DNA of 64,000 nt from positions 96,001 through 160,000 of IMG/VR virus record IMGVR_UViG_3300032308_002246; one strand, written 5' to 3'. The translations under genes and the position numbers were made by a program. Source of the DNA: a virus. A model generated the notes under the pieces. The model saw nothing but the letters and a program-made list of their open reading frames with translations. It was not told the DNA's origin and searched no databases. Positions 30,315 through 62,069 of the stretch are shown here, one piece after another. The first letter of the stretch is position 1; each line of letters opens with the position of its first letter.

Positions 30315-33300
30315 ATGGCAGCATATACACGCAAACAATATTCGGGCGCTGCTCGTAATACGACTACAACAACACTCTTGACGAATGTTGGAACAACAGT
30401 TGACATTACAGCGACCACTGGATGGCCATCTATTGCTGGCATCCCTTTTTATGTTGTAATCAGCCCATCTTCAATCTACGAAGAAAAGTGTCTTGCAACC
30501 ATATCTGGCTCAACCCTCACTCTTGATAGAGCAAAAGATGACACTACTGCGTCAGAGCACCCAATCGGCTCAGTTATTTACCCAGTATTTACCGCAAACG
30601 ACGCAGATGAAGCAAACGAACTTGTCTCAAAACTTACTACTACAGGCGACCTTCTCACCACGGACGGAACCAATCTGCTCCGTTTGGGAGTTGGCGAAGA
30701 TGGCTACTTTCTAAAAGCAAGTAGTTCTGCATCAGCTGGTATCGAGTGGGCCTCAATCCCGACAATCAACAACCTCAATGACATTGGCGATGTAACAATC
30801 AATGATGTTGAAGAATCAGATTTTCTTGTTTACAAAGCCTCGGCTTCTGCATGGATTAACGAAACAATCCACTTCATCACCGTCTCCGACACAGAGCCAA
30901 CTGATGAAATAAGACAAGGCGACCTGTGGTACAACTCAAGTGAACTTGAGCTTTATACCTATTACTCAAACAATTGGGTGCAAGTAACCCTCACCCCAGA
31001 ATTTCTGAAAGTTGAAGAACTTGACAACGTTTACATTGACAACGCAAATGCTGGCGATGTTCTAACTTTTGACGGCCTTGACTGGTACAACGACAATGTA
31101 GTCAGTCTTTTGGGGCCAGATATATCTGCGGAAACCGTAACGGCTTCAGTATTCACTGGAAACTTAACTGGAAACTCCGACACGGCAACTGCGTTAGAAA
31201 CACCACGGACAATATCCCTATCTGGTGATGTTTCTGGCTCGGTTTCTTTTGACGGCTCACAAGATGTTTCCATATCTGCAACAGTTCAAATAAACTCCAT
31301 AACCCTTGGAACCGACACAACTGGCAACTATGTAAATGATGTCGTAGCTGGAACCGGAATCTCAGTTACTCACACACCTGGAGAAGGTTCATCAGCAACT
31401 GTCGCAATCAATGCAACACTAGACAACCTTTCAGATGTAACTGTTCCATCTCCAACCTCTGGAGATTTCTTGAAGTGGAACGGTACGGCTTGGGTTAATG
31501 ACCCAATCAACCTTGGCACCGATACTGCTGGGAATTACATGTCTGACCTTACACAGGGCACTGGTGTAACGATTACCCACACACCTGGCGAAGGCTCAAA
31601 TGCAACTATCGCAATTGGTCAAGCAGTAGCGACTTCTTCGTCAGTACAGTTTGCTGCTGTTACTGCGCCACTAGTTGGCAATGCATCAACGGCTTCAGCA
31701 TTGCAAACAGCACGGGCTATCTCGTTGACTGGCGATGTTTCTGGTTCTGTTTCATTTGATGGTTCTGCAAATGCAAGCATCACTGCAACGATTCAGCCAA
31801 ACTCCGTAGCTTTGGGCACGGATACAACTGGCAACTATATGTCTGACCTCACACAAGGCACTGGTGTAACGATTACGCACACACCTGGGGAAGGTTCCAA
31901 TGCAACCATTGCGATTGGACAGGCTGTTGCAACTAGTTCTTCAGTTTCGTTTGCAAGACTAGAAACTACGGGAGATGTTTTAGTCGGCGGAAATTTAACC
32001 GTCAATGGAACTACCACGACATTAAACACCGAGACGTTATTGGTTGAAGACAACATAGTTGTTTTGAACTCTGGAATTACAGGTTCACCAACACTTAACT
32101 CTGGAATTGAAGTTGAGCGTGGAACTTCGGATAACGTATCAATGCGTTGGAATGAGTCAACAGACCGCTGGGAATTCACTAACGACGGAAGTGCATACAA
32201 TAACGTCCTTCTGAAGAGCGATATCAGCTTGAATGATATCTCTGACACAGTAATTACGTCTGCGGCAAACGGTCAACTACTCGAATTTGATGGAACAAAC
32301 TGGGTTAATGCGGTTCGCCCATCCAGCGAGCCGATGGGGCACGAGAATAAAGCTGACAGCGTAATTTCGTTCAACGAAGGCACAAGAACATTCTCCATAG
32401 CACCAGCATCTACCTCTTTTACGGTTTGGTGTGCTGGAAAACGTTTCGTAAAGACAACAACAGAAACTGTTCAAATTCCAGATACATCTGGTTTGTATTA
32501 TATCTACTACAACTCAAGCGGAGTGCTTTCATATAGAACTACATACTTCGTTTGGGATACAGACGCACCAACTGCTTATGTTTACTGGAATGAAGTAGAC
32601 AACAAGGCTTACTTCTTTGCTGATGAACGTCACGGTGTAACACTCGATTGGGCAACACACGAATACCTGCACAGAACTCGCGGTGCAGCAATCGCTAATG
32701 GATTCGGTGCAAATAACTACATTCTTGATGGCAATGGTTCATTAGATTCTCACGCAAAACTAGATATTGCTAATGGAACATTCTTTGACGAAGACCTTCA
32801 AGTTGACATTGCACATTCCGCAACCCCAACAGCAAATACATGGGAACAAGTACTTCAAGGCAATGCAGAGATTCCAGTTTTTTACAGACTAAATAATCAC
32901 TGGGTAAAGGATTCCGCAACTGAATTCCCAATGAAGCAGGGAACCGACAGGCCAAGATATAACCTTAATACTGCTGGAACATGGTCAACACCAGATGTAG
33001 CGAATAACCACTTTGGTGTGTCTTGGATTATTGCTACGAATAACCTGAATGAACCAGTTATTGCAATTCTTGGTCAGGGTTCTTACACTAATAACGGTTC
33101 AGCGCAAGCGGAGTTTTACGCTTCACTTGATTTAGATGGATTCCCAATCGTTGAGTTTCGCCCTCTTTACAAGATTATTTATGAGTGCAAGACTTCATAC
33201 ACAAATACCCCAAGCGCACGAATAACGGATGTTATTGACCTAAGAAGCGTCATTTCTTCAGACCAGGGTGTAGGTACAACACCAGTTTCTGACCACGGTT

Positions 33301-33914
33301 CAATGACTGGTCTTGCTGATGATGACCACACTCAGTATTTAACCGATGCGCGTCATGATGCTCTTGACCACACAACGGCAATAGGTTCTGCTTCGCTTGA
33401 CGACATCGGCAATGTCTCGGCTTCAGCTGCTGCTTCTGGAGACTTTTTAAAGTACGACGGAGCCAATTGGGTTAATGACCCAATCAACCTTGGCACCGAC
33501 ACTGTCGGCAACTATATGGTCAACGTGTCTGCAAGCACCGGACTCTCAATCTCTCACACTCAGGGTGAAGGTTCGACTGCGACAATTTCAACAACTGGTG
33601 TTCAGACGCTTGGCGCAAAGGCCGGCAACTACACGCTTGCTGCTGGTGATGCTGCAGAAACAATCATTATTATGGACTCAAGCTCCGCCAACGACTTGAC
33701 TGTCCCAAGCGCTTCAGCTGTTGCGTTCGGTACTGGCACAAGCATCACCGTTGTTCAGCGAGGTACTGGCAAGACAAGAATCCTTGCAGGAGCAGGAGTA
33801 ACGCTCTTGGCAACTCCTGGTCTTTTCCTAAGGGCAAGATACTCTTCATGCACAATAGTCAAAACAGAAAATGCAAACGAGTGGTTTGTTATAGGTGACT
33901 TGGCGGCATCGTGA
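30315..33914 (+). CDS. Tail fibre protein with C-terminal cap domain (cassette 1)
   Basis: LNDIGDV/LSDV fibre repeats, LGTDTTGNY modules, C-terminal YTL...ANDLTVP...GTGKTRILAGAGVT...WFVIGDLAAS. Confidence 0.85.
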   Translation: MAAYTRKQYSGAARNTTTTTLLTNVGTTVDITATTGWPSIAGIPFYVVISPSSIYEEKCLATISGSTLTLDRAKDDTTASEHPIGSVIYPVFTANDADEANELVSKLTTTGDLLTTDGTNLLRLGVGEDGYFLKASSSASAGIEWASIPTINNLNDIGDVTINDVEESDFLVYKASASAWINETIHFITVSDTEPTDEIRQGDLWYNSSELELYTYYSNNWVQVTLTPEFLKVEELDNVYIDNANAGDVLTFDGLDWYNDNVVSLLGPDISAETVTASVFTGNLTGNSDTATALETPRTISLSGDVSGSVSFDGSQDVSISATVQINSITLGTDTTGNYVNDVVAGTGISVTHTPGEGSSATVAINATLDNLSDVTVPSPTSGDFLKWNGTAWVNDPINLGTDTAGNYMSDLTQGTGVTITHTPGEGSNATIAIGQAVATSSSVQFAAVTAPLVGNASTASALQTARAISLTGDVSGSVSFDGSANASITATIQPNSVALGTDTTGNYMSDLTQGTGVTITHTPGEGSNATIAIGQAVATSSSVSFARLETTGDVLVGGNLTVNGTTTTLNTETLLVEDNIVVLNSGITGSPTLNSGIEVERGTSDNVSMRWNESTDRWEFTNDGSAYNNVLLKSDISLNDISDTVITSAANGQLLEFDGTNWVNAVRPSSEPMGHENKADSVISFNEGTRTFSIAPASTSFTVWCAGKRFVKTTTETVQIPDTSGLYYIYYNSSGVLSYRTTYFVWDTDAPTAYVYWNEVDNKAYFFADERHGVTLDWATHEYLHRTRGAAIANGFGANNYILDGNGSLDSHAKLDIANGTFFDEDLQVDIAHSATPTANTWEQVLQGNAEIPVFYRLNNHWVKDSATEFPMKQGTDRPRYNLNTAGTWSTPDVANNHFGVSWIIATNNLNEPVIAILGQGSYTNNGSAQAEFYASLDLDGFPIVEFRPLYKIIYECKTSYTNTPSARITDVIDLRSVISSDQGVGTTPVSDHGSMTGLADDDHTQYLTDARHDALDHTTAIGSASLDDIGNVSASAAASGDFLKYDGANWVNDPINLGTDTVGNYMVNVSASTGLSISHTQGEGSTATISTTGVQTLGAKAGNYTLAAGDAAETIIIMDSSSANDLTVPSASAVAFGTGTSITVVQRGTGKTRILAGAGVTLLATPGLFLRARYSSCTIVKTENANEWFVIGDLAAS

Positions 33915-34873
33915 TTCCGGGCAATCAAGCCAGTGGTGGAAAGTTTATTGACCCACCAGATTCAATATCTGTAGTTCCAAACGCTCTAGGCGGTGCCAGC
34001 GACATAGTTATCAATCACACTGGTTATAAAGGGAAATCTGGGTCAGTTAAATTCAGGGTCACTTCAAACACTGGGGTCAGTTCTGTTTCTGAAGCCACAA
34101 GTGGAACGTCTAGGTCCATGTCTCTGACTGGATTAAACAATGGCGTTAGCTACACGTTTTCAGCAGTCACAATTGAGTCTCAGTCTTCTGTCGAATCTTT
34201 ATCTGCTGTAACTTCATCTTCATCACTTGTTGCAGGAGTTCCAACTGCCCCAGCTCAACCAACTGTTTCTGCTGGTAATGGTCAAGTAACTGTATCGTGG
34301 AGCGAACCAGCAAATAACGGTGCAGCTATTACTAGTTATATTGTTTACTGGTCAACATCATCTGCTGCTATTCAAAGTTGGTCAAACTCGGTAAACACTG
34401 GTTCGACATCCACGTCTTATACCGTTACTGGATTAAGCAATGGAACCGCATACTATTTTACAGTTATTGCAGTCAACGCTACTGGTCAGAGTGCAAGGTC
34501 AGCTGTTTCAAGTGGAGCAACACCAGTGGTCCCAGGGCCACCACCTCCTCCGCCATGCTCTTGTGACGGTGTAGCCAGAAGACAGTACGGTTCATTTGCT
34601 CATCTCGACCCAGCCGGTTTTGGTTGGACATGTGACGGAACAACGAGCTACGAGTACTACACATATGGAACATGTGTTGGATGCCCTGGTGAAGGTGGTT
34701 ACAACGGAGCATTAAGAAACGGTGTTTGTGGTTATGTCGCGCCTGCTCCTCCGCCTCCTTCTCCTCCGCCCCCTTCTCCTCCACCTCCATCGCCGCCACC
34801 CGCTCCTCCTCCTTGCTCAATATGCTGCTCTGGATGCTTTATAGACCCAAAGCTTGGACCAATTTGTTGTTAG
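33911..34873 (+). CDS. FN3-domain protein with Pro/Cys-rich C-terminal tail
   Basis: GTGA overlap; FN3 pattern PTAPAQPTVSAGNGQVTVSW...YTVTGLSNGTAYYFTVIAVN; tail has P6, SPPPP repeats and 12 Cys. Confidence 0.88.
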   Translation: MIPGNQASGGKFIDPPDSISVVPNALGGASDIVINHTGYKGKSGSVKFRVTSNTGVSSVSEATSGTSRSMSLTGLNNGVSYTFSAVTIESQSSVESLSAVTSSSSLVAGVPTAPAQPTVSAGNGQVTVSWSEPANNGAAITSYIVYWSTSSAAIQSWSNSVNTGSTSTSYTVTGLSNGTAYYFTVIAVNATGQSARSAVSSGATPVVPGPPPPPPCSCDGVARRQYGSFAHLDPAGFGWTCDGTTSYEYYTYGTCVGCPGEGGYNGALRNGVCGYVAPAPPPPSPPPPSPPPPSPPPAPPPCSICCSGCFIDPKLGPICC

Positions 34874-34909
34874 TCTAAAAGACAATCAGAGATACAGTAG
34901 GATTTAATC

Positions 34910-35440
34910 ATGAGCAACGCTGAAGAAATTTGGATACCGCGAGAACCAACAGAATCAGAATATACATTTCAAGGCTGGTTTAATTGGGAAAACAAATTTG
35001 GTGAATTTGGTACTCCTGGATACTGGGATTTTGTAGAACAAACAAAAATTCCGTCTGTTTTTGGGGACGATAATCCTAGAGATGTTTATTTCACGCTCTA
35101 TAGACAAGACGGAGACGGCCTGCTTCTAGCAGTAATTCTTAGATACCGTGATGAATCAGGGGAGCTTCATCCACTTTTAATGCTGGTTCATCCAGACCAT
35201 CGGGGGAAGGGAATTGCAACTCAAGTGCTTCTTCGCATGGAAGAAAAATTTATCAACGAAGAAGCCCATGTATATGGGTACACGGTAGAGGACTTTCGAG
35301 CACTACCAAGAGCAGAACGAGCCGCTTTGGTTATTCCTCCAAAATGGGACGTACCAACCAATGAAGCTGGAGCGGGTTTTGCAACCCATGCAAGCAAGAT
35401 GTTTTATACGGTTGAAAAAGATTTCACAGTAGAGCCGTAA
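34910..35440 (+). CDS. GNAT-family acetyltransferase
   Basis: VHPDHRGKGIAT acetyl-CoA binding motif A. Confidence 0.82.
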   Translation: MSNAEEIWIPREPTESEYTFQGWFNWENKFGEFGTPGYWDFVEQTKIPSVFGDDNPRDVYFTLYRQDGDGLLLAVILRYRDESGELHPLLMLVHPDHRGKGIATQVLLRMEEKFINEEAHVYGYTVEDFRALPRAERAALVIPPKWDVPTNEAGAGFATHASKMFYTVEKDFTVEP

Positions 35441-35441
35441 G

Positions 35442-35669
35442 ATGTCTGCCTATCAGGAGTGGAAGAAAAAACTTGGAGATACACGCCCGTGGGATGTTGT
35501 TAACCCAAACATAGAAAAAACCACAGATGAAGAGGCAGAAAGAAGATTTTCGATTTGCCGAGAATGTCCAAGCCTGCTTGCGGTCACCAGCCAGTGCAGA
35601 GAATGCGGATGCTTCATGAAGTTAAAGGTGAAGATACAAGAAGCAACGTGCCCCTTGCAAAAGTGGTAG
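35442..35669 (+). CDS. Small Cys-rich protein (DUF6171-like)
   Basis: RFSICRECP...CRECGCFMKLK...CPLQKW. Confidence 0.8.
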   Translation: MSAYQEWKKKLGDTRPWDVVNPNIEKTTDEEAERRFSICRECPSLLAVTSQCRECGCFMKLKVKIQEATCPLQKW

Positions 35670-35696
35670 CCCCAACCAGAATGTAAGGGTTTTGCA

Positions 35697-36284
35697 ATGA
35701 AGTACATCAACGTAAATGGCGTATGTGTTTACAGGAATGCAATTATCAATCCCTCTGAGATAATAGAAGCCTCTGAGCTGTTAAGCATCTCGAAAGACAG
35801 CCGAGGCGATTGGACCAAATCGACAGTAATTGACACCGAGGGGAAGGTCTTTGTTTCTGAAGTAAGGACAAACCAGTTGATGTTCACCCCAACGCCAACT
35901 CAAAGGGGGGACGAGTCGTCGGCAGAGGTTATGCTGGCGAATAAAATTCACGAATATGTGATTCCTTGTGTCCAAAACTTTGCGGCGAAATTTGGTCTTT
36001 CAATCAAGTTCCAATCTACAAACGGATATCAAATTCTCAAGTATTCAGTTAACGAACATTACGTATCCCACCTTGATGATGGTGAAAAAACCAGACGGTA
36101 CGCTTCTGCCGTTGCATACCTAAACGACGACTACGAAGGTGGCGAACTATATTTTCAGGATTTGAATTTCACATATCAGCCGGTAGCCGGGGATGTTGTA
36201 ATTTTCCCATCTGGAGCACCATTTAGGCATGAGGCAAAACCCGTAATCAGCGGCATAAAGTACTCAATAGCTAACTGGTGGTAA
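35697..36284 (+). CDS. 2OG-Fe(II) dioxygenase (prolyl-4-hydroxylase-like)
   Basis: YQILKY...HLD...YLNDDYEGGEL...HEAKPV...KYS. Confidence 0.92.
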   Translation: MKYINVNGVCVYRNAIINPSEIIEASELLSISKDSRGDWTKSTVIDTEGKVFVSEVRTNQLMFTPTPTQRGDESSAEVMLANKIHEYVIPCVQNFAAKFGLSIKFQSTNGYQILKYSVNEHYVSHLDDGEKTRRYASAVAYLNDDYEGGELYFQDLNFTYQPVAGDVVIFPSGAPFRHEAKPVISGIKYSIANWW

Positions 36285-47668: not shown

Positions 47669-47669
47669 C

Positions 47670-53814: not shown

Positions 53815-54422
53815 GCGAGTCTATTTACAACATCCCAATAAATTCAATTGACGGAGATAAAGATATGCTATCAGGCCTCAATGGAATGGTTACATTGTTC
53901 TTCCCTTTTGCTTCAAAAGCTGGGTATGAGCCAAAATGCAGCCGTGTTTGGTCTTATGCTAGAACTTCCAGAAAGCTCTGGGAGATGCAAAAGCTGCACG
54001 AAATGTTTGAAAACTTCTCTGTTGTTGGGGTACCAACAAATCAGTTTTGGAACATGGAGCCTTTGGAAAATGAACAGATATCAAAATTTATAAAAGAAAC
54101 ATACCCATTCGTCAAGTTTCCAATTACTGAAAAAGTGGTTATAAACGGAGATGACGAGCATGCAATCTGTTCGCATATGAAGGGTTATACCAAGCGACTT
54201 GTTGACGACACAAAAGCTGGTAACAGCTTTGCTGCATCACAGGGTCAAAATCTTGCTGGTGGAGCTGTACACAAAATACCCGCTTATTACGAAAAGTTTG
54301 TAGTCAGCAAAGAAGGTCGACAGGTCTACAGATTTGGGTTTGCTACTAAACCCTTGGCAGACAGGGTTGAAACCACTGACATGGATATGACTGTAATTCA
54401 GGCAGTACAATCATTACTATGA
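53811..54422 (+). CDS. Glutathione-peroxidase-like protein lacking the canonical peroxidatic Cys
   Basis: ASKAG in place of ASxCG; VVGVPTNQF...EP...FPITEKV...YEKFVVSKEG. Confidence 0.8.
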   Translation: MSESIYNIPINSIDGDKDMLSGLNGMVTLFFPFASKAGYEPKCSRVWSYARTSRKLWEMQKLHEMFENFSVVGVPTNQFWNMEPLENEQISKFIKETYPFVKFPITEKVVINGDDEHAICSHMKGYTKRLVDDTKAGNSFAASQGQNLAGGAVHKIPAYYEKFVVSKEGRQVYRFGFATKPLADRVETTDMDMTVIQAVQSLL

Positions 54423-55279: not shown

Positions 55280-55599
55280 ATCTTTTTTGTAAACATCTTT
55301 TCAGTTACAAATAAATGCTTTGCAAGAGTACTTGATGAGTGAATTATCCCAAGTGGATTTGGAACATTAAATTCGTTGAGGATGTCTGCCATCTTCCCGT
55401 TTGCAATGTCATCCCAAAAAGCCATCATTGCTTCCGCTCCAGTGCGGCCAGCTATGTAGTATTTTTCTTCAATTTGACCCGGGAGAACATTGTCTGCCCA
55501 GTGGTTGTAACCATCTTTTTCTACCATGTTTGGCAGCTTGGCAAACTCCTGGACCATAATTTCTGTCCACCGATTGAATGCGTCGTTCTTTTCGCTCAT
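55276..55599 (-). CDS. Hypothetical protein, single inverted gene
   Basis: MSEKNDAF... start at 55599, 6 nt after a TATGAT -10 element. Confidence 0.7.
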   Translation of the reverse strand: MSEKNDAFNRWTEIMVQEFAKLPNMVEKDGYNHWADNVLPGQIEEKYYIAGRTGAEAMMAFWDDIANGKMADILNEFNVPNPLGIIHSSSTLAKHLFVTEKMFTKKI

Positions 55600-55617
55600 T
55601 CGGCTATCATACACCGT
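55600..55617. promoter_or_regulatory. Bidirectional overlapping -10 elements for two leaderless genes
   Basis: TATCAT (+, 55605-55610) lies 7 nt before ATG 55618; TATGAT (-, 55611-55606) lies 6 nt before ATG 55599. Confidence 0.6.
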
Positions 55618-56490
55618 ATGAATCAAGAGCATAAGTTCAACGATGTAGAGCCACATCACCTCGGTGGTGGGGTTGTCGTTTTCCGTGGAGCTATTTCATT
55701 TGATAACAAATGGGCAAGCTCCTTTGCTGAGAAGCAGGTATCCAAAGAACGTTCTCAGATGTACGACGAGGCGGTAGACCCAGAGACGGGGGAGCCCGCA
55801 TTTATAAACAGGAGCGGGTATTACTTTGATGCTGAGGGAATGAACCAGATGCCTCGACGTGGTTCACAAATACACATGGATGCGGATGAAGAAGTTAGAG
55901 GTTTCTTGGATTTTATTGAGAAATCAAAAGACTCATATCTCCTGAAGTACTTTTACCTTTTCCCTCTGGCATACAAAAATGTTTGGTGGAAAGTAAAGGG
56001 GCATCTTGTCTCGTACTCCGTTGAAAACGGCGGAAAGTTTTTGGGCCCACACTCCGACACGAGTGCTGACTATGCTTACGGTTTCCCCCATCCGCACGAC
56101 CAGCTAGCTACTAGAAACACAATCTCATGCATTGTTTATCTAAATGATGATTTTGAGGGCGGACATCACTACTTCAATTATCTTGAAATTGACTATAAGC
56201 CTTCTGCTGGTGACATTTTGATGTTTCCATCAAACTACATGGCAGCTCATGAAGTAAAGGAAACAACGGGTGGAAGTCGATACACATATCTTGGTTGGTA
56301 TTCGCACGGCACGCCAAATAAAGAGGTCAATGAGCATATAGTTGACCCAGTTGAGTTTCCAGAAATGGCAAAAACTGCAACCAATGTTTATATGCCAACG
56401 CTTCGTTATGATTTTGCCGAATACCTTAACAAAGTTGACCCAGGCAAAACATCATTTGGGCACAGTCTGGTAGAAAGTATGCACTCATGA
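55618..56490 (+). CDS. 2OG-Fe(II) dioxygenase (HLGGG subfamily)
   Basis: HHLGGG...WWKVKGH...HSD...YLNDDFEGG...HEV...RYT; true start is ATG 55618. Confidence 0.9.
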   Translation: MNQEHKFNDVEPHHLGGGVVVFRGAISFDNKWASSFAEKQVSKERSQMYDEAVDPETGEPAFINRSGYYFDAEGMNQMPRRGSQIHMDADEEVRGFLDFIEKSKDSYLLKYFYLFPLAYKNVWWKVKGHLVSYSVENGGKFLGPHSDTSADYAYGFPHPHDQLATRNTISCIVYLNDDFEGGHHYFNYLEIDYKPSAGDILMFPSNYMAAHEVKETTGGSRYTYLGWYSHGTPNKEVNEHIVDPVEFPEMAKTATNVYMPTLRYDFAEYLNKVDPGKTSFGHSLVESMHS

Positions 56491-57221
56491 TAGTAAAACA
56501 TCTTGGGAATGGAATAATGCTTTTTGAAGATGTATTAGACACATCCCCCCTTGAGTCGTATCTTGAAAGAATTTTTGCAGAAAATTCAAGCGCTACAAAC
56601 GGAGTCAATATTGACTCATCTCAAAATGACGGTGGATACACCGTACAGGAAGCTCATATTTCAGAATTACCAATTAGGTTTCACGGACTCTCCGGTAGTT
56701 CTGAATTTACAAAAGACGTCACAAAATCAATTGATGATGCGTTGTACAAGTGCTTAGTTGAGTACTGTCGAGTTTTCCCTTTAGCAATTGACTGTATAAA
56801 GTGGAGAACTAGCGGCCAGATTGCATCTTACTCGGTAGGGCAGAACATTGGCCCACATAGCGACTGCGCGCTTCCGTATGATGCCGATGGCAATGTTTTA
56901 AACTCATTCCCTCTTCACAACACTCTTACTGGCTCAATGGTTTTAAGTGAAAATCACGAGGGTGGAGCAATAAAATTTAGACCCTGGGGGATAACTTCAA
57001 ATCCAAAAATTGGCTCAGTTTTGATTTACCCATCATCTTTCATGGGTTGTCATGAAGTTGAGCAAGTAACTTCTGGTGTTAGAAATGTTTATCTGCAGTG
57101 GTTCTGTCAAGGAAAACCAGAGATGCAAATTTTAGAAAATAACAAATTGGACAATCTTGCAACCGACGCAAAAAACTGCGGACAAGGCTATGTTCATGTT
57201 GGAATTATTCAACAGAATTAA
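56487..57221 (+). CDS. 2OG-Fe(II) dioxygenase (HLGGG subfamily)
   Basis: KHLGNG...HSD...EGG...HEV...RNV. Confidence 0.88.
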   Translation: MIVKHLGNGIMLFEDVLDTSPLESYLERIFAENSSATNGVNIDSSQNDGGYTVQEAHISELPIRFHGLSGSSEFTKDVTKSIDDALYKCLVEYCRVFPLAIDCIKWRTSGQIASYSVGQNIGPHSDCALPYDADGNVLNSFPLHNTLTGSMVLSENHEGGAIKFRPWGITSNPKIGSVLIYPSSFMGCHEVEQVTSGVRNVYLQWFCQGKPEMQILENNKLDNLATDAKNCGQGYVHVGIIQQN

Positions 57222-58288
57222 TACAAACTGTTGTGTTCTTTGCCGCGTTGCTCGTTATCGTATACCACCTGAGAATGTGAGTAGGCTTTCTTTAGACCGT
57301 TTTCACCCTCAAGTGTTCTATTTTGGTAAACAGGGTTTGCCTTAAACATCCCGTTTGCGTCTTTTGCCGCATCGCCATTTCCCATGAATTCAGTTTTTAG
57401 GCAGTAATACTTGTAGTCATCGTACAGGTTGTCTATGAAGTGTGGTCTACACCATCCATCGTTGTCTTCAGGTTCAGAAATGTTGATTCCTACGTCGTCA
57501 TGACTGCTTCCTTGACTAAAGAATTCAAGGTACCCATACCGGACACCCTTCTTTACTGGTTCAACACCGTGGGTGGCCATAAAGTTTGCTGGGAAAATAA
57601 CCACATCACCAGTCTTTGGGACATTCTTTATTCCCAAGTAAGGGAATACAAGCTCTCCTCCGGTGTAGTTTTCTCCGTTTAGCTCTGATTCGTCTTCTAC
57701 GCAGTCATTGAGATAGAGCATTACTGCTAGCACTTGGCGCATTTGTATTTGTCCGCGTGGAACAAAACGCTCGCCGTTTGTTGCTCTGTAATTTGAGTCG
57801 TTGTCGTTGTGTATTCCAAGGAAAGCACCCTCGTCGTATCTCATGGCGTGACCCTTTGTGCGCCACCATATTGTTCCCAAAACCATAGGGAATTCATCAA
57901 CATATCTAAGAAGACACTTGTAAATCATGTCTTCCCAGTACCTGAATACCTCAATCATTTCTGGTTTTGTTTCAGAGTTGACCACTTCAAGAAGTCTTAC
58001 TGGGACCATCTGGACTTGTTCTGGCGAAAACTTATTACCGTCTTCATTAATGGCGTATAGATTTCCCTCTTCGTCATGGTCCCATGTCCAGCGCTGTTCA
58101 TGAGCTGATTTTGAATGTTCGTCAATGTACGGAAGAAGCGTACTTCTATCAATGTTTACTACGCCGGGGAACCTGAGTACGCCGCCACCGAGGTCTTCGT
58201 ATGGCATGTTAAAGATTTCAGAGACAGCTTCGTTGTTACGGACATCAGGTGTGGTTCCGTAAAATCTGTTGTCTTTTATCTTTTCCAT
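57218..58288 (-). CDS. 2OG-Fe(II) dioxygenase (HLGGG subfamily)
   Basis: EDLGGG...WWRTKGH...HND...YLND...GGEL...HGV...RYG. Confidence 0.9.
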   Translation of the reverse strand: MEKIKDNRFYGTTPDVRNNEAVSEIFNMPYEDLGGGVLRFPGVVNIDRSTLLPYIDEHSKSAHEQRWTWDHDEEGNLYAINEDGNKFSPEQVQMVPVRLLEVVNSETKPEMIEVFRYWEDMIYKCLLRYVDEFPMVLGTIWWRTKGHAMRYDEGAFLGIHNDNDSNYRATNGERFVPRGQIQMRQVLAVMLYLNDCVEDESELNGENYTGGELVFPYLGIKNVPKTGDVVIFPANFMATHGVEPVKKGVRYGYLEFFSQGSSHDDVGINISEPEDNDGWCRPHFIDNLYDDYKYYCLKTEFMGNGDAAKDANGMFKANPVYQNRTLEGENGLKKAYSHSQVVYDNEQRGKEHNSLY

Positions 58289-58290
58289 AG

Positions 58291-58893
58291 CTACTCTCGC
58301 CAAAATTGAATCAAACTGAATCTAGCACCTGCAGTCACTTCCGTAATTCCATGGTAGTTCAAGTCAGCGTTGAATATAAGTGCTTCTCCAGCTTTGAGTT
58401 TGATGTCTATGTCAATATTGGGGTTCTCCATCGTCCCCGTCAAATAGAACTGCGTGTGGCCGCCTTCGTAATCGTCGTTTAAGCATATAGCCGACGAGTA
58501 GAGAATCCTGCCCATGCCGTAATCGCCATCTCCACCGTCCGTATGAACCTTGTGGGATTGACCAGTAGTTTGGCTTTTAATCGTGAAGCCTGGGTTTGGG
58601 AAAAACGGAACATCCAAGTTTATTCCTGTTTTAAGCATGTACTCGCTGGTTAGTCTTCTGTATACCGCAGAGAGTATTGAAGCAAGCTTAAAGCCCCCAA
58701 CGCTCGAAGAATTGCTCATTAAGTAGGTGGGAAAAATGTTGCGCTCATCACTGGAAGGACTTTTATATTCCAGCGAGTTTACAGAACTCATAATTTTTGA
58801 TAAGAGTCGACCACTTATTAGTTGTCCTAGGTAAATTCCAGAACCATTTGGGCCTATTTCTTTCAACATTTCTACATTATCCGTCTTTACCAC
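58291..58893 (-). CDS. 2OG-Fe(II) dioxygenase
   Basis: HTD...CLNDDYEGG...HGI...RFS; start uncertain (GTG at 58893 overlaps the upstream stop). Confidence 0.88.
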   Translation of the reverse strand: MVKTDNVEMLKEIGPNGSGIYLGQLISGRLLSKIMSSVNSLEYKSPSSDERNIFPTYLMSNSSSVGGFKLASILSAVYRRLTSEYMLKTGINLDVPFFPNPGFTIKSQTTGQSHKVHTDGGDGDYGMGRILYSSAICLNDDYEGGHTQFYLTGTMENPNIDIDIKLKAGEALIFNADLNYHGITEVTAGARFSLIQFWRE

Positions 58894-59114
58894 TTTCCAA
58901 GCGGGCATGTAGCGGCCTGAAGTTTTACTTTCAGTTTCATAAAACAACCACACTCTTTACATTGCTTTGTTAAAGCCAACAAGCTTGGGCATGACTCGCA
59001 AATAGAATATCTACTAGAAGAAACTTCATCTGAAACGTGCTTTGCATTTGGATTCACTGCATCCCAAGGGCGTGTTGTACCAAGTTTTTTCTTGTACTCC
59101 TGCCATGGCGTCAT
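58887..59114 (-). CDS. Small Cys-rich protein (DUF6171-like), paralogue of 35442
   Basis: QEYKKKLGTTRPWD...CESCP...CKECGCFMKLK...CPLGKW. Confidence 0.82.
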   Translation of the reverse strand: MTPWQEYKKKLGTTRPWDAVNPNAKHVSDEVSSSRYSICESCPSLLALTKQCKECGCFMKLKVKLQAATCPLGKW

Positions 59115-59118
59115 TTTT

Positions 59119-59433
59119 TTATTGATTCCTAGCTTCCTCGATTGAATCATTGTACTGTTTATAAGCAACCTGACAAACTGAACGGTAGTTCATTAAAGCT
59201 GAAATGTAAGCCATGACTGGGTCTATTGAGAGTTCTTCAAATTCATCTATTTGTCGAATAAACTCTTCAACATTTTCTTTTAGTTTATTGATAATTTCCG
59301 TTTTCAAAGTTTCCAAAACGCTATTGTCATCTTCCAAAAAACCAAATATGCGAATAGCTTCCTGTTGGGCGAGAGGAATCATCTCGTCGTTTTCTTCAAA
59401 AAAAACACCCTGTGATGTATGTACGATTCTCAT
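59119..59433 (-). CDS. Hypothetical protein
   Basis: AGGAG SD; 104 aa. Confidence 0.65.
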   Translation of the reverse strand: MRIVHTSQGVFFEENDEMIPLAQQEAIRIFGFLEDDNSVLETLKTEIINKLKENVEEFIRQIDEFEELSIDPVMAYISALMNYRSVCQVAYKQYNDSIEEARNQ

Positions 59434-59447
59434 GCTTTTCTCCTAAT

Positions 59448-59762
59448 TTATTGTTGCGATTTTGCAATTTTGTATTTGGTGTAGTTGTTGTTTACAGAAT
59501 ACGAATAGGCTGTCAATGCTTTAATGTACACGTCAAGATTGCTCATATCAAGATTTCCGTGTTTATGAAATTCTTGTGCAGTTTTATTGGCAGAATCAGC
59601 AAAACCGACAGCAAGCTCATTTATTAATTCGCTAACGAACCATGGAAATTCATCAAAGATAGGAAATAATTTTTTATCTTCCGAAACATATATGTATTCA
59701 TCACCGTATTTTATTAATACTGCAGTTGAAGTATGTACGACCGAAGGTTTTTTAGCGTTCAT
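59448..59762 (-). CDS. Hypothetical protein
   Basis: MNAKK start overlaps the upstream gene; similar size and layout to 59119. Confidence 0.6.
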   Translation of the reverse strand: MNAKKPSVVHTSTAVLIKYGDEYIYVSEDKKLFPIFDEFPWFVSELINELAVGFADSANKTAQEFHKHGNLDMSNLDVYIKALTAYSYSVNNNYTKYKIAKSQQ

Positions 59763-59919
59763 TTTCTTTGCCCCATTTGCCAATAGGGCATTCAGCTGAT
59801 TTTACATGTGTTTTTATTCTCATAAAACAACCGCACTCTTTGCATGTATATGTTCTCTTAAAGAGTCTTGGACACTGAGAACATATATCGAGTCTTTTTT
59901 TGGCGTAATCTATTTCCAT
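59752..59919 (-). CDS. 55-aa Cys-rich protein (DUF6171-like; not in ORF track)
   Basis: Manual translation: MEIDYAKKRLDICSQCPRLFKRTYTCKECGCFMRIKTHVKSAECPIGKWGKENER*. Confidence 0.82.
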   Translation of the reverse strand: MEIDYAKKRLDICSQCPRLFKRTYTCKECGCFMRIKTHVKSAECPIGKWGKENER

Positions 59920-59931
59920 AAGCAATGATTA

Positions 59932-60879
59932 CTATAGCGGCTGATAGTCGAAATCGTCAACAGTCGAGGCCTGGGTCCCATTTGTAACCGGGTAAAGCGT
60001 TATTCCGTATGCTTTTGCTTTTGCCGCCGTTGCGAGACTTACATCGTGGGTTGTCGCTGCATCACCGTTTAGAACTGATTGAATTCGCACGGTCTCTGAA
60101 GATGGTGTATCTGTACTCACTTGAACATAATCGAAGTATCTAGAAGAGCTTGTAGTGTCTGCTTTGCTTGTGCTATTTACAACCGTAACAGTTCCGCCAC
60201 TTGATTTAATTGTTCTAATCCAATATCTGTAGTATGTAGTTGTTCCGGAAACAGTGTAAGAGTATGAACCAACACCTACCTGCGTATTATTTTCACATTG
60301 ACAGGCAAGGCCATTGTTAACAAAATAACACCCACCACCGCATACATTTGCACATCCACCTCCAGTGGATTGACCATTACATGATGGGTCAGGTCCACAT
60401 GAGCCGCATGGGCTGGAGCATGGCTGATAAAAAGCGCACGGTCCACTTCCCCCAGTACATGCATTGTTTGAGCATGTGCAAGTTGGGTATCCTGAACAAA
60501 CCGAATAACCACCAGGGCAACCATTGCAGGCATATTCAGTATAGCTATATGGGACTCCATATGTGTCTCTATCAGTTACCGCGGCATACCAATTATTTGA
60601 GTTTTCAACCCAAAATGCAGCACCCCAGCCAAATTGGCCTGTTGTTCCGTATCCTATGCGCGTTCTTGCATACGTAACACCAGTTTTAATGGAGGCCAAA
60701 GGATATGAAGACGCTGCAGTAGCTGTTGATGCCCTGTTGCTTGATACACCCCATGTGCCTCGAGTATTTTGCCAAGACTTTGTGCCTGTCCCTACAAGCG
60801 TACTTCCGCTGTCTGTTCTATTGAAATTATCAATAAAAGCTTTTAATTTTGTAACAATAGATACAATTCCAGGAATCAT
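59932..60879 (-). CDS. Virion-type beta-sandwich protein with a 16-Cys insert (cassette 3)
   Basis: Starts MIPG via ATGA overlap; DNFNRTDS...DDF lectin-like frame; Cys/Gly/Pro-rich insert at 60295-60528. Confidence 0.8.
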   Translation of the reverse strand: MIPGIVSIVTKLKAFIDNFNRTDSGSTLVGTGTKSWQNTRGTWGVSSNRASTATAASSYPLASIKTGVTYARTRIGYGTTGQFGWGAAFWVENSNNWYAAVTDRDTYGVPYSYTEYACNGCPGGYSVCSGYPTCTCSNNACTGGSGPCAFYQPCSSPCGSCGPDPSCNGQSTGGGCANVCGGGCYFVNNGLACQCENNTQVGVGSYSYTVSGTTTYYRYWIRTIKSSGGTVTVVNSTSKADTTSSSRYFDYVQVSTDTPSSETVRIQSVLNGDAATTHDVSLATAAKAKAYGITLYPVTNGTQASTVDDFDYQPL

Positions 60880-62069
60880 GTTGTAAGGTTCCCTACCGCC
60901 ACCCATGTATTTGTTGCTCGCTTAATCAATGTAGCACAAGCCCATTGACCCTGAAGTTTTAGACCAGAATCATAAGCATTTATGGTTACGCCACTTCCCT
61001 GCAGTGTTACCAAATATGTGCCGGTTGTTTGAAGAACATCGACTCTGTCGCCAATAGCAAAGTTGGCGTCATTTGCCGATGTTATTGTGACAGTAACATT
61101 TGCTGATGTCGGGCCAACTTCAATAAGTTTTCCGAGGTCGGCAACAAGTATGTTGTAATTATTCGATGTTAGAGTTACCGCTGTTCCAGCACCAGTTGAC
61201 CTAAAACCAGCGCGCGCCGCTCCAGCAGCAAGGTCTGTTGTGGAAACAGAGTTTGCTAAGTTTAATTTTGAATACGAAATTGATGCTGACGCACTAATAT
61301 CGGAATCAACAATAACACTGGCTGAAATCGCTGTAACACCAGTGTCTGAAATTGTTACATCTCCAGACTCCGCAACGGCAGTCGGAACGCCAGAAGAGTT
61401 GTAGACAATAATGTTTCCAGCAGTGCTTGTTGCCAATTTTGACAAAGCAATAGACGCAGATGCGCTTATGTCTTCGTTGACAATAGTTCCATTTACTATA
61501 TTTGCTGATGCAATAGTTATTGCGGTTGGGAGTGCCCCTGTAGCAAGTTTTGACAAATCAATAGACGCAGAAGCATTTATATCAGCATTGACAATTGTTC
61601 CGTCAAGAATTTTATCACTTGTAACTGAACCAGTTGCAAGTTTTGCTTCTGTTATAGCGCCGTCTTCAACTTCAGCTGTTTGAACTTCTCCTGAACCACC
61701 GGTTATGACCCAATCATCGCTTGTTCTTTTAATTAAGGTTACTCTTGTCCATTGAGATGAGATTGTCGTTAGACCGCCCTCGGCTGCAACTGTTACGCCT
61801 GGTGCACCAGCAATACTCAATGAACCTGTAGAAACGAGAAGAACATCAACCCTGTCTCCAATTTCAAAAGTAACAGCGGCGTTGGTCGGTATTGTCAGAG
61901 TAATTGACCCAGAGTTTGAGAACTCCAAAAGCTTTCCTCTGTCGGTAGCTACAAGTGTGTAGCTTGTTCCAGTCTGGACATTTTTTGTAAAATTAAAATC
62001 GCTTGCCTGGAGCGTATTCATCTGTGAGGCCGTTAGTGTCTGGCCAGCTGCAAACGTCTGAATTGTCAT
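60876..62069 (-). CDS. Fibre protein with two cap domains (cassette 3)
   Basis: YTLVATDRGKLL...WVITG and ADLGKLI...WVAVGNLTT flank IVNADI repeats; GAGG SD. Confidence 0.8.
   Translation of the reverse strand: MTIQTFAAGQTLTASQMNTLQASDFNFTKNVQTGTSYTLVATDRGKLLEFSNSGSITLTIPTNAAVTFEIGDRVDVLLVSTGSLSIAGAPGVTVAAEGGLTTISSQWTRVTLIKRTSDDWVITGGSGEVQTAEVEDGAITEAKLATGSVTSDKILDGTIVNADINASASIDLSKLATGALPTAITIASANIVNGTIVNEDISASASIALSKLATSTAGNIIVYNSSGVPTAVAESGDVTISDTGVTAISASVIVDSDISASASISYSKLNLANSVSTTDLAAGAARAGFRSTGAGTAVTLTSNNYNILVADLGKLIEVGPTSANVTVTITSANDANFAIGDRVDVLQTTGTYLVTLQGSGVTINAYDSGLKLQGQWACATLIKRATNTWVAVGNLTT

What the first reader, a model, noticed from the sequence alone, without database searches (positions are those of the whole stretch)
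30315..62069. Three-copy cassette: fibre cap, Pro/Cys-rich partner, modifying enzymes. Candidate phage system for post-translational decoration of its own fibre tips
Seen: three fibre genes (30315, 43737, 60876-) end in the same ~90-aa domain (Y[TN][LI]...D...[IV]G..[IV].V.Q.....GV[T]....W...G[DN]L). Each is immediately followed (GTGA overlap, 3-nt gap, ATGA overlap) by a ~315-345-aa partner with a related N-terminus (MIPGNQASGGK, MAVSSNNQIDSGGK, MIPGIVS). Each partner carries a different low-complexity segment: SPPPP/Cys, (PP[F/Y]F)15, or a 16-Cys loop. Each partner is followed by its own enzyme set. Cassette 1: GNAT, CxxC protein, P4H-like dioxygenase. Cassette 2: GPx x3, nine dioxygenases, a Rossmann protein, DUF6065 and an MTase-like protein. 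Cassette 3: two CxxC proteins and two dioxygenases. Known: 2OG-Fe(II) prolyl hydroxylases act on Pro-rich protein segments, and clusters of these genes near fibre genes occur in T4-like cyanophages with unclear function. Inference: the layout resembles a RiPP gene cluster (substrate plus dedicated tailoring enzymes), but the substrate is a displayed virion protein. That would give the phage chemically modified, swappable fibre tips for adhesion, host range or protection.
Basis: partly seen in the sequence, partly recalled or inferred. Interest (0 to 1): 0.88.

Follow-up and report, generated by a model that had tools for sequence, protein, structure and literature searches.

The report
Phage fibre tips with matched enzymes
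An uncultured 174-kb relative of T4-like cyanophages ends three fibre genes in the same cap domain, follows each with a small tip protein carrying a proline- or cysteine-rich segment, and places collagen-type hydroxylases and other enzymes beside them, so the phage probably modifies its own fibre tips chemically, though no chemistry has been measured.

Summary
Three fibre genes share a ~95-aa cap (E 5e-27 to 1e-6). Each is translationally coupled to a partner gene. The enzyme calls hold: 12 2OG oxygenases, 3 GPx-like, 3 DUF6171 (not 2), GNAT and DUF6065.

In about 160 metagenomic loci the cap is C-terminal in 163 of 164 ORFs. The next gene is a modular tip protein: a short N-terminal motif, FN3 domains and a variable tail.

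Tail type tracks enzyme content.
- (PPxF)n tails come with two particular oxygenases plus DUF6065, which has a dUTPase-like fold, in 28-30 of 32-33 loci. One oxygenase is P4H-like and one is P3H/LH-like.
- Cys-rich tails come with DUF6171.
- Gly-rich tips in other phages have no such enzymes.

Support is correlative. Only 3 well-supported independent transitions exist. Close relatives keep a Cys tail without DUF6171. The docking model got weak support. The cassette 2/3 enzyme border is arbitrary.

The closest published description is the Syn9 tandem dioxygenase array (Iyer 2010), read there as secondary metabolism. This scan noted the same theme earlier on other DNA (e1-5698920, e1-5645120).

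Verdict: a likely fibre-tip post-translational modification system, untested. It is a new variant of known kinds.

The parts
30315..33914 (+). Fibre 1 (1199 aa). The cap domain is the last ~100 residues (about 33612-33911).
   Evidence: PHROG tail-fibre hits; cap similarity.
33911..34873 (+). Partner 1 (320 aa). N-terminal MIPGNQASGGK motif, FN3, then PPPPPP / Cys-Gly-Tyr knot / (SPPPP)n / CC..C tail.
   Evidence: It has the richest Pro segment in the whole 174-kb genome.
34910..35440 (+). GNAT acetyltransferase-like protein.
   Evidence: Pfam PF00583, 27.7 bits against cut-off 20.7. Kept in relatives that lack the next two genes.
35442..35669 (+). DUF6171a. A 75-aa protein with six invariant Cys.
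   Evidence: Pfam 38 bits; alignment A5; model pLDDT 94 with no fold match.
35697..36284 (+). Oxy01, a P4H-like 2OG-Fe(II) oxygenase (HLD at 125, Lys at +10 from the second His).
   Evidence: Pfam 57 bits; best PDB match B. anthracis P4H, E 8e-6; motifs.
43737..44516 (+). Fibre 2 (259 aa). The cap is residues ~160-259.
44520..45554 (+). Partner 2 (344 aa). DSGGK N-terminal motif, three FN3 domains, and a (PP[F/Y/R]F)16-K tail at 45357-45551.
45558..47026 (+). GPx-like 1 and 2 (45558-46136 and 46133-47026). The Cys at the peroxidatic position is kept; the Trp of the tetrad is replaced by Gly.
   Evidence: Pfam GSHPx; PDB HYR1/GPx hits; sequences.
47051..47668 (+). Oxy02, a core oxygenase of PPFF loci.
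   Evidence: Orthologue present in 28 of 32 PPFF loci at E<1e-30. Best PDB matches are prolyl 3-hydroxylase 1 (E 1.6e-4) and lysyl hydroxylase LH3. Its Pfam score of 25.0 is just under the cut-off of 27.
47607..48332 (+). Oxy03, an accessory oxygenase.
   Evidence: Pfam 37.8 bits.
48342..49007 (+). Oxy04, a core oxygenase of PPFF loci. It is collagen-P4H-like (H129-T-D131, H182, K192).
   Evidence: Orthologue in 29 of 32 PPFF loci. Aligned to B. anthracis P4H at E 6e-6, with the His and Lys aligned.
49007..49555 (+). Small Rossmann-like protein (weak call).
   Evidence: Pfam 2-Hacid_dh_C, E 9e-4, below cut-off.
49518..50246 (+). DUF6065. dUTPase-like beta-barrel with an invariant H-A-Y-x-C-x-P motif. 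Third core gene of PPFF loci.
   Evidence: Pfam 148 bits; model pLDDT 83; VIA Z 10.5, rmsd 3.0 over 110 residues against EIAV dUTPase; co-occurrence.
50249..57221 (+). Accessory block. Oxy05 (50249), three small ORFs, u99 (51228), u248 MTase-like (51502), Oxy06 (52245), Oxy07 Oxy_5 type (52912), GPx-like 3 without the Cys (53811), Oxy08 (54419), Oxy09 (55339) and Oxy10 (56487).
57218..58953 (-). Oxy11 and Oxy12, convergent with the plus-strand array. Oxy11 is a paralogue of Oxy08-10.
58887..59925 (-). DUF6171b (58887-59168), u104, u111 and DUF6171c (59752-59925).
59932..60879 (-). Partner 3 (315 aa). MIPGIVS N-terminus and a conserved beta-rich body split by a hypervariable insert with 16 Cys.
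   Evidence: Relatives in other phages also follow a cap fibre.
60876..62069 (-). Fibre 3 (397 aa) with the cap domain at both ends.

Best explanation
This is a modular fibre-tip system with dedicated tailoring enzymes.

Step 1 (shown by sequence comparison). A ~95-aa cap domain ends the fibre protein. The next, translationally coupled gene encodes a tip protein. The only part shared by all tip types is a short N-terminal motif, either M-x-I-x-G... or ...DSGGK-x-P.

Step 2 (inferred, with weak modelling support). That N-terminus docks on the cap. The FN3 spacers and a C-terminal business end are then displayed at the fibre tip, much as gp38-type adhesins sit on gp37.

Step 3 (inferred from co-occurrence and enzyme family). 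During late infection the neighbouring enzymes modify the tail. In (PPxF)n tails a P4H-like oxygenase (Oxy04) and a P3H/LH-like oxygenase (Oxy02) hydroxylate the prolines. They work with the dUTPase-fold protein DUF6065, whose role is unknown. The likely result is a stabilised polyproline-II rod, and the 12-residue Tyr period fits 3 residues per turn.

Step 4 (speculative). Further oxygenase paralogues, GPx-like proteins and an MTase-like protein add optional decorations.

Step 5 (inferred from co-occurrence only). Cys-rich tails are served by the six-Cys protein DUF6171, with or without a GNAT. DUF6171 probably acts as a metal- or thiol-handling helper for folding the Cys knot.
For: CAP AND COUPLING.. 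The cap is C-terminal in 163 of 164 ORFs, and the next gene starts at -4 to +3 nt in most loci.

N-TERMINAL MOTIF. It is shared by tips with unrelated bodies: FN3+PPFF, FN3+Cys, Gly-rich and the partner-3 family. Partner-3 relatives in two unrelated phages also follow a cap fibre (cap HMM E 1e-35 and 6e-40).

DOCKING MODEL. Three cap chains plus partner residues 1-110 gave 'weak support'. The ipSAE median was 0.38 (runs 0.38, 0.50, 0.26) against a best control of 0.00. The partner pLDDT was at least 82 and the runs agreed in at least 82% of contacts. The mark was reached by 58 of 80 solved complexes and 2 of 110 mismatches. At 0.60 or under it was reached by only 7 of those 80 and by both mismatches that passed.

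CO-VARIATION, counted as both traits present / first only / second only / neither.
- PPFF tail against two or more oxygenases within 6 kb: 36 / 2 / 2 / 15.
- PPFF tail against DUF6065: 30 / 3 / 0 / 14.
- Cys tail against DUF6171: 11 / 4 / 0 / 64.
- Hybrid PPFF+Cys tails carry both enzyme kinds.

REVERSE TESTS. 31 of 34 DUF6065-anchored loci have a PPFF ORF 1.5-5.2 kb upstream. 14 of 15 type-A DUF6171 genes lie next to a Cys-rich partner.

DEPTH. The trio Oxy04-like, DUF6065 and Oxy02-like plus cap fibre and PPFF partner persists down to 27% DUF6065 identity (L284).

ENZYME FAMILY. The nearest solved relatives are B. anthracis P4H, P3H1, LH3 and PiuC. The H-x-D...H...(+10)K/R signature is present. 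The same Lys is described for C-P4H in PMC9676403.

GENE LAYOUT AND CANDIDATE SUBSTRATES. Cassette 1 enzymes lie between two fibre genes, in a 30-kb co-directional array with no gap over 62 nt. Partners 1 and 2 hold the two most Pro-rich segments of the whole genome.
Against: - No measurement of any modification, of expression timing or of virion content exists.
- The co-occurrence is largely within one phage lineage. Only 3 independent trait changes lie on well-supported branches. All 3 go the same way, but the sign test gives p 0.25 (1-2).
- Three close relatives keep a Cys-rich partner-1 tail with no DUF6171 or oxygenase nearby (L088, L026, L016). Partner-3 relatives have no DUF6171 nearby.
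- A second DUF6171 subtype sits elsewhere, not next to a Cys-rich gene.
- DUF6065 has a nucleotide-enzyme fold. It also stands alone in bacterial chromosomes without oxygenases.
- PDB matches of the oxygenases are weak (E 1e-4 to 1e-6).
- Oxygenase number does not scale with repeat number (rho 0.05).
- Iyer et al. 2010 read the analogous Syn9 array as secondary-metabolite biosynthesis (PMC2938197).
Confidence: 0.55

Rival explanations
1. The oxygenase, GPx and DUF6065 island is a secondary-metabolite or auxiliary-metabolic cluster. It would make or alter small molecules or free peptides, or tune 2-oxoglutarate levels. On this reading it sits next to the fibre genes only because that junction is a hot spot for gene gain and the order is inherited.
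For: Iyer et al. 2010 proposed this for the Syn9 array of 10 dioxygenases, two Trp halogenases and a dUTPase-fold Cys protein (PMC2938197). Sullivan et al. 2010 proposed 2OG/N-stress or DNA-repair roles (PMC3037559). In S-RSM4 the homologous structural gene is followed by the variable psbA region. Enzyme number varies widely and independently of repeat number. Few independent transitions are supported.
Against: Cassette 1 enzymes lie between structural genes. Tail type and enzyme type switch together, including in hybrids. The association survives to 27% identity. No NRPS, PKS or peptide-precursor genes were seen in the island. The nearest solved relatives are protein hydroxylases.
Confidence: 0.2
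2. The enzymes are protein modifiers, but the target is something other than the partner tails. Candidates are other virion proteins, host envelope proteins or host regulators. The partner tails would then be unmodified structural or adhesive elements.
For: P4H-like signatures say protein proline but not which protein. Other Pro-rich proteins exist in the genome, for example a poly-Pro protein at genome 38336-39157, near two further oxygenases at 33334 and 34738.
Against: Partners 1 and 2 are by far the most Pro-rich segments in the genome. They co-occur with the core enzymes in both directions of the test.
Confidence: 0.12
3. The island modifies nucleotides or DNA. On this reading DUF6065 is a dUTPase-like nucleotide enzyme, the oxygenases are base hydroxylases and u248 is a methyltransferase.
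For: DUF6065 has a dUTPase or dCTP-deaminase fold (Z 10.5-6). Oxy12 has a weak Tet_JBP hit (E 3.4e-4, below cut-off). u248 has a weak MTase hit.
Against: No AlkB, TET or JBP match reaches any threshold. All best PDB hits are protein hydroxylases. The invariant DUF6065 residues (R31, W33, H41-A-Y-x-C45-x-P47) do not resemble the dUTPase motifs as I know them; I did not align them formally. This reading does not explain the link to tail type.
Confidence: 0.05
4. The partners are assembly chaperones for the fibres, like T4 gp38 or gp57A or Mu Tfa. They would not be displayed tip proteins, and their tails would act only inside the cell.
For: Their position directly after the fibre gene, with translational coupling, is typical of fibre chaperones.
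Against: FN3 arrays and long repeat tails are typical of exposed virion parts. PHROG matches are to minor tail and central fibre proteins. Relatives carry Gly-rich domains of the kind annotated as tail fibre proteins.
Confidence: 0.08

Closest known systems
Tandem dioxygenase arrays of cyanophage Syn9 (Iyer, Abhiman, de Souza, Aravind 2010, PMC2938197)
   Same: [quoted passage not shown] In Syn9 the array also starts just after fibre genes and Gly-rich tip-type genes gp32-gp39.
   Different: Syn9 has Trp halogenases and a JmjC (MINA-type) member, and no cap domain, PPFF partner or DUF6171. Only gp50 matches a window oxygenase (E 1e-5). DUF6065 gave no tblastn hit in 50,697 cultured-phage records. 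The authors proposed secondary-metabolite synthesis, not fibre modification.
Viral and bacterial collagen-type prolyl 4-hydroxylases: chlorovirus PBCV-1 vCPH (Longbotham 2015, cited in PMC9676403) and B. anthracis P4H (PDB 3itq, 5hv0)
   Same: All are small stand-alone P4H-type DSBH enzymes with H-x-D...H and Lys at +10. By my knowledge of the PBCV-1 work, they are encoded by an organism that also encodes Pro-rich repeat proteins, including SPPPP-like and PAPK repeats.
   Different: Here there are two conserved hydroxylases plus up to ten paralogues. They sit beside one identifiable repeat protein in a fibre module, with DUF6065, GPx-like and DUF6171 partners. The repeat (PPxF) has no Gly and is not collagen-like. 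Sequence similarity is weak (E about 1e-5).
gp38-type adhesins capping the gp37 long tail fibre of T2/T6/S16-like phages
   Same: A separate small protein is encoded right after the fibre gene. It is thought to sit on the fibre's C-terminal end and carry the variable receptor-contacting part. Relatives of the partners in other phages have Gly-rich domains.
   Different: There is no sequence match to gp38 families. FN3 spacers are present. The tails are Pro/Phe or Cys repeats. Dedicated enzymes lie downstream. Attachment is not demonstrated.
RiPP biosynthetic gene clusters
   Same: A gene-encoded substrate with a repetitive core lies next to its tailoring enzymes, and substrate type co-varies with enzyme type.
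   Different: The substrate is a 315-344-aa structural protein. No leader peptide, RRE domain, protease or exporter was found.
Predicted bacterial operons in which beta-hydroxylases, phytanoyl-CoA hydroxylases and sulfotransferases modify collagen-like or phage tail-collar proteins (PMC2938197)
   Same: Both share the logic of dioxygenases encoded beside a fibrous repeat or tail-fibre-like substrate.
   Different: The enzyme families and substrates differ. No sulfotransferase is present here. Those operons are bacterial, not phage virion modules.

Membership tests
P4H-type 2OG-Fe(II) oxygenases (Pfam PF13640 2OG-FeII_Oxy_3) | Profile match above Pfam's gathering score | tested here: met
   Nine of the eleven Oxy_3-type genes score 32-57 bits against a cut-off of 27. 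Oxy02 (25.0) and Oxy06 (23.7) fall just below. Oxy07 instead matches PF13759 at 29.8 bits against 27.
P4H-type 2OG-Fe(II) oxygenases (Pfam PF13640 2OG-FeII_Oxy_3) | Fe(II) triad H-x-D...H and a basic residue 10 positions after the second His that binds 2OG | tested here: met
   H-x-D is present in 11 of 12. Lys is at +10 in Oxy01 and Oxy04 and Arg in most others. Oxy04 H129/D131/H182/K192 align with B. anthracis P4H. Oxy07 lacks a clear H-x-D.
P4H-type 2OG-Fe(II) oxygenases (Pfam PF13640 2OG-FeII_Oxy_3) | Hydroxylation of peptidyl proline | not testable with these tools
   This needs an enzyme assay or mass spectrometry.
RiPP gene cluster | Short precursor with leader and core, a leader-recognition (RRE) element and a leader protease | tested here: not met
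   The putative substrates are 315-344-aa FN3 or beta-rich proteins. Pfam and NCBIfam found no RRE, protease or transporter in the island.
gp38-type fibre-tip adhesin | Sequence or profile membership in known gp38/adhesin families | tested here: not met
   Pfam finds only FN3 in partners 1 and 2 and nothing in partner 3. PHROGs gives only FN3-driven tail hits.
gp38-type fibre-tip adhesin | Encoded directly after the fibre gene and bound to its C-terminal end | tested here: inconclusive
   The gene order is met. Binding has weak modelling support only: 0.38 against a control of 0.00.
Glutathione peroxidase (PF00255) | Catalytic tetrad Cys/Sec, Gln, Trp, Asn | tested here: not met
   GPx1 and GPx2 keep the Cys (GHCGN, AGCGN), but Gly replaces Trp in the xNFxKFL motif. 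GPx3 has Ala in place of the Cys. The fold family is met, although GPx2 scores 25.2 bits, below the cut-off of 27. The motif positions are taken from my knowledge of GPx.
dUTPase / dCTP deaminase superfamily (for DUF6065) | Beta-barrel fold of trimeric dUTPases | tested here: met
   The top 22 VIA matches are all from this superfamily. The best is Z 10.5, rmsd 3.0, 110 residues aligned. Foldseek gives E 7e-5.
dUTPase / dCTP deaminase superfamily (for DUF6065) | The five dUTPase catalytic motifs | not tested
   Identity is only 7-17%. The invariant DUF6065 residues lie partly in a low-confidence loop. No formal motif alignment was made.
GNAT acetyltransferase (PF00583) | Profile match above the gathering score | tested here: met
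   27.7 bits against 20.7.

The most novel reading that the evidence does not exclude
Phages of this lineage build enzyme-tailored adhesins. The receptor-end protein of a fibre carries a gene-encoded repeat, either (PPxF)n or a Cys knot. This repeat is chemically rewritten by a co-inherited, swappable enzyme kit: paired P4H-like and P3H-like hydroxylases for the two prolines of each repeat, a dUTPase-fold helper, a six-Cys DUF6171 helper, and optional further oxygenases, GPx-like and methyl- or acetyl-transferases. The result would be hydroxyproline-rich polyproline-II filaments on the virion. This would be a RiPP-like logic applied to a virion protein, and a new axis of host-range variation.
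Probability: 0.4. Interest if true: 0.85.

Novelty: new variant of a known kind. Interest (0 to 1): 0.72.

Why it matters
Cyanophage 2OG oxygenase arrays have lacked a known substrate since at least 2010. Proposals so far are DNA repair, 2OG tuning and secondary metabolites. This locus, with about 160 related loci, offers a concrete and testable substrate: the Pro- or Cys-rich tail of a fibre-tip protein encoded immediately upstream.

If the reading is right, three things follow.
- Phage receptor-binding parts can be diversified by enzymatic chemistry as well as by sequence.
- Hydroxyproline-based structural chemistry exists in bacterial viruses.
- DUF6065 and DUF6171 gain a functional context.

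It also defines a portable cap-plus-docking-peptide module found from Gordonia and Shewanella phages to cyanophage relatives.

Tried and rejected
- Megablast and tblastn of the island, partner 2 and DUF6065 against 50,697 cultured-phage records found nothing. The lineage is therefore uncultured. Only distant oxygenase paralogues (about 30% identity) occur in marine cyanomyoviruses.
- Partner 3 gave no relative in IMG/VR by pattern scan. The 5.8-billion-protein search later found 56 relatives.
- Sequence searches of PDB with the cap, partner 3 and DUF6065 gave nothing meaningful.
- The DUF6171 model (pLDDT 94) has no fold match. Foldseek found none and the best VIA Z was 2.2. Its fold and chemistry stay unknown.
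- T4-type late-promoter (TATAAATA), sigma-70 and terminator scans were at chance level and define no operon borders.
- Phylogenetically controlled pair tests lacked power, with 1-3 supported pairs. Clustering whole partners at 50% identity merges all FN3 partners into one cluster, so a cluster-level Fisher test was discarded as meaningless.
- I considered that DUF6065 might be a cupin-type oxygenase. The fold search rejected this.
- I considered that repeat number might predict oxygenase number. It does not.
- Literature searches for DUF6065, and for phage tail-fibre hydroxyproline, found no paper.

Full report
WHAT IS THERE

The window is bases 96001-160000 of a single 173,962-bp contig. Its 918-aa structural protein (40978-43734) is 43-44% identical over its full length to virion proteins of T4-like cyanomyoviruses S-RSM4, S-PM2 and Syn1. 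The phage is therefore a distant, uncultured relative of that group. Megablast against 50,697 phage records finds nothing.

From 26956 to 57221 all genes run on the plus strand with no gap over 62 nt. From 62069 back to 57218 a second array runs on the minus strand.

Three fibre genes end in the same ~95-aa domain. The BLASTP values are fib1/fib2 55% identity with E 5e-27, fib2/fib3 E 5e-28, and fib1/fib3 E 1e-6. Fibre 3 has a second copy near its N-terminus.

- Partner 1 is FN3 plus a PPPPPP / Cys-Gly-Tyr / (SPPPP)n / Cys tail.
- Partner 2 is three FN3 domains plus 16 PP[F/Y/R]F units and a final Lys.
- Partner 3 is an unrelated beta-rich protein with a 16-Cys insert.

The ten identical PPFF units of partner 2 use eight different DNA versions. 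The repeat is therefore maintained at protein level.

Pfam confirms GNAT, DUF6171, twelve 2OG oxygenases, three GPx-like proteins and DUF6065. Two oxygenases and GPx2 score just under the cut-off. The 'Rossmann' and 'MTase-like' calls are weak. A third DUF6171 copy (59752-59925, minus strand) directly follows partner 3 and had been missed. Genome-wide, all cap, DUF6171, GPx-like and DUF6065 genes and 12 of the 14 oxygenases lie in this island.

THE CAP-PLUS-PARTNER MODULE IS GENERAL

The cap occurs at about 50% identity at the C-terminus of 'minor tail proteins' of 244 cultured phages, including Gordonia, Brevundimonas and Shewanella phages. There too a tightly coupled gene follows.

I collected 164 loci and called ORFs in them. 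The cap is C-terminal in 163 of 164 cap ORFs. The next gene usually starts at -4 to +3 nt.

These downstream proteins share only a short N-terminal motif, M-x-I-x-G-.. or ..[KD]-S-G-G-K-x-P. After it they diverge into four types: FN3 plus (PPxF)n, FN3 plus a Cys knot, FN3 or no FN3 plus a Gly-rich domain, or the partner-3 fold. Of 37 PPFF-only tails, 29 end in FK.

Relatives of partner 3 in two unrelated phages are also preceded by a cap fibre (cap HMM E 1e-35 and 6e-40). This pattern is what a docking peptide on a common adaptor would give.

A model of three cap chains with partner residues 1-110 gave weak support only. The median ipSAE was 0.38 against a best control of 0.00. The partner pLDDT was at least 82 and at least 82% of contacts were shared between runs. 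At scores of 0.60 or under, only 7 of 80 solved complexes passed the mark, and so did both mismatches that passed.

TAIL TYPE TRACKS ENZYME CONTENT

I used 82 non-identical cap-partner pairs. Counts are given as both traits present / first only / second only / neither.
- PPFF tail against two or more oxygenases within 6 kb: 36 / 2 / 2 / 15.
- PPFF tail against DUF6065: 30 / 3 / 0 / 14.
- Cys-rich tail against DUF6171 within 1.3 kb: 11 / 4 / 0 / 64.

Hybrid PPFF+Cys tails have both DUF6171 and the oxygenase/DUF6065 set. Gly-rich tips in other phages have neither.

Two oxygenase orthogroups, Oxy02 and Oxy04, are present in 28 and 29 of 32 PPFF loci at E<1e-30. The other paralogues are present in 4-19 of the 32 loci at that threshold, except the Oxy01 type, which is in none.

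The reverse tests agree. 31 of 34 DUF6065-anchored loci have a PPFF ORF 1.5-5.2 kb upstream on the same strand. 14 of 15 'type A' DUF6171 genes lie next to a Cys-rich partner.

The arrangement of cap fibre, PPFF partner, Oxy04-like, DUF6065 and Oxy02-like survives to 27% DUF6065 identity (L284).

LIMITS OF THAT EVIDENCE

The loci are related. On a careful tree of cap plus partner N-terminus, only 3 independent Cys/non-Cys contrasts lie on supported branches. All three go the same way, but the sign test gives p 0.25. On all branches there are 7 contrasts (one search gave 1-2).

Three close relatives of cassette 1 keep a Cys-rich tail but have only a GNAT, or nothing, downstream. Two partner-3 relatives have no DUF6171 nearby. 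A second DUF6171 subtype sits in another context.

Genuinely bacterial DUF6065 genes (30-35% identity) stand without oxygenases. Oxygenase number does not follow repeat number.

The split of enzymes between cassettes 2 and 3 is arbitrary. Oxy11 is a paralogue of Oxy08-10 (E 2e-49) and lies on the PPFF side in other phages.

WHAT THE ENZYMES LOOK LIKE

- Oxy04 and Oxy01 match Bacillus anthracis collagen-type P4H best (E 6e-6 and 8e-6). The H-x-D, the second His and a Lys ten residues later are aligned. This Lys is the 2OG-binding residue of C-P4H (PMC9676403).
- Oxy02 matches prolyl 3-hydroxylase 1 (E 1.6e-4) and lysyl hydroxylase LH3. Oxy09 also matches P3H1.
- No nucleic-acid oxygenase family reaches threshold.
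- Two conserved hydroxylases of different subtype beside a repeat with two adjacent prolines suggest, as inference only, that each proline of PPxF gets its own enzyme. Tyr recurs every 12 residues in the first part of the tail, which fits a polyproline-II helix of three residues per turn.
- DUF6065 folds with pLDDT 83 into a dUTPase-like barrel (VIA Z 10.5, rmsd 3.0, 110 residues; the top 22 hits are all from that superfamily). [quoted passage not shown] Its role is unknown.
- DUF6171 has six invariant Cys (C-x2-C ... C-x2-C-x-C ... C-P) and a confident model with no structural match. In the Atlas its clusters are almost all viral.
- GPx-like 1 and 2 keep the Cys but not the Trp of the tetrad. 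GPx-like 3 has lost the Cys.

MOST LIKELY MECHANISM

The cap is an adaptor. The partner docks by its N-terminus and displays FN3 spacers and a tail. During late infection the adjacent enzymes hydroxylate prolines of the tail, and possibly modify it further. DUF6171 assists the Cys-rich ends.

Shown: the gene architecture, its generality, the co-variation and the enzyme family signatures.
Inferred: docking, virion display and every chemical step.

Supporting details: cassette 1 enzymes lie between two fibre genes. Partners 1 and 2 hold the most Pro-rich segments of the genome. I put this reading at about 0.55.

Rivals: a metabolite or AMG island linked only by synteny (0.2), protein modification of another target (0.12), assembly chaperones rather than displayed tips (0.08), and nucleotide modification (0.05).

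COMPARISON WITH WHAT IS KNOWN

The nearest description is the Syn9 array of ten tandem dioxygenases (Iyer et al. 2010). It also begins just after fibre genes and Gly-rich tip genes. It is only remotely related in sequence and was read as secondary metabolism.

Viral P4H acting on viral Pro-rich repeats is known from chlorovirus PBCV-1. I know this from memory; the structure paper is cited in PMC9676403.

Tip adhesins encoded after the fibre gene are known from T2/S16-type phages (gp38). No sequence link to them was found here.

The RiPP analogy is functional only, because the defining parts are absent.

I found no paper describing PPxF-tailed fibre partners, DUF6065 or DUF6171 in this role.

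This scan has noted the same theme on other genomes (e1-5698920, e1-5645120). The second of those notes gave me the lead to the Syn9 paper.

VERDICT

This is a new variant of known kinds. It is interesting because it gives the long-unexplained phage oxygenase arrays a specific, cheap-to-test substrate.

Noticed in passing
window 60876-62069 (-): Fibre 3 carries the cap domain twice, at residues ~36-124 and again at 304-396. The two copies are separated by IVNADI/SASASI-type shaft repeats. An N-terminal cap is unexplained if the domain is only a distal adaptor.
   Followed up: partly
window 53811-54422 (+): GPx-like 3 has Ala where the peroxidatic Cys should be (..FASKAGYEP..), so it is probably not a peroxidase. 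GPx-like 1 and 2 keep the Cys but replace the tetrad Trp by Gly.
   Followed up: partly
loci L029-L163 (PPFF partners with at least 8 kb downstream): Exploratory result. Loci with GPx-like genes have more PPYF units in the tail (mean Tyr fraction 0.25 against 0.12, Mann-Whitney p 0.002). This is not corrected for relatedness.
   Followed up: partly
genome C1:33334-39157 (outside the window, about 57-63 kb before its start): The only two oxygenase paralogues outside the island (33334-34215 and 34738-35430) lie 3-5 kb upstream of a 273-aa protein with an 11-residue poly-Pro run followed by a beta-rich domain.
   Followed up: no
window 36529-40656 (+): A 1375-aa fibre shares many repeat units with fibre 1 (phmmer E 3e-200) but has no cap and no partner. 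Its C-terminus weakly matches L-shaped tail fibre assembly and head-tail adaptor PHROGs. It may use a different end.
   Followed up: no
L127, L128, L129, L135, L138, L143, L161:5527-5724: A second DUF6171 subtype (N-terminus MSDD.KPWDLING) lies on the opposite strand, after a ~200-aa gene ending ..SHQLWTTVS..IIG.P. It is not next to a Cys-rich protein.
   Followed up: no
window 59119-59783 (-); L286:7120-7434; L288:7104-7445: Small acidic 104-113-aa proteins follow partner-3-family genes in three unrelated phages (u104 and u111 here). They may be fibre or tip assembly helpers.
   Followed up: no
L266, L278, L279, L284: In the distant branch of the system a conserved ~255-aa protein (..RPW..VPVPTQ..IPDWYK...PDGG.Y.K.VW.RREYK) sits among the core oxygenases and DUF6065. 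It has no counterpart detected in the window.
   Followed up: no
L285 (Syn9) 8856-12328: Syn9 gp36, gp38 and gp39 are Gly-rich proteins ending ..VVRY/..IVIVTHFK, like the Gly-rich partners of other phages. They lie just upstream of the Trp halogenase and dioxygenase array, so that array too may be fibre-linked.
   Followed up: partly
L242-L245, L266, L278-L284: Several contigs with this phage module are binned into bacterial MAGs (Cyclobacteriaceae, Verrucomicrobiales, Acidimicrobiaceae, Luteolibacter and others). They look like phage contigs rather than host genes.
   Followed up: no
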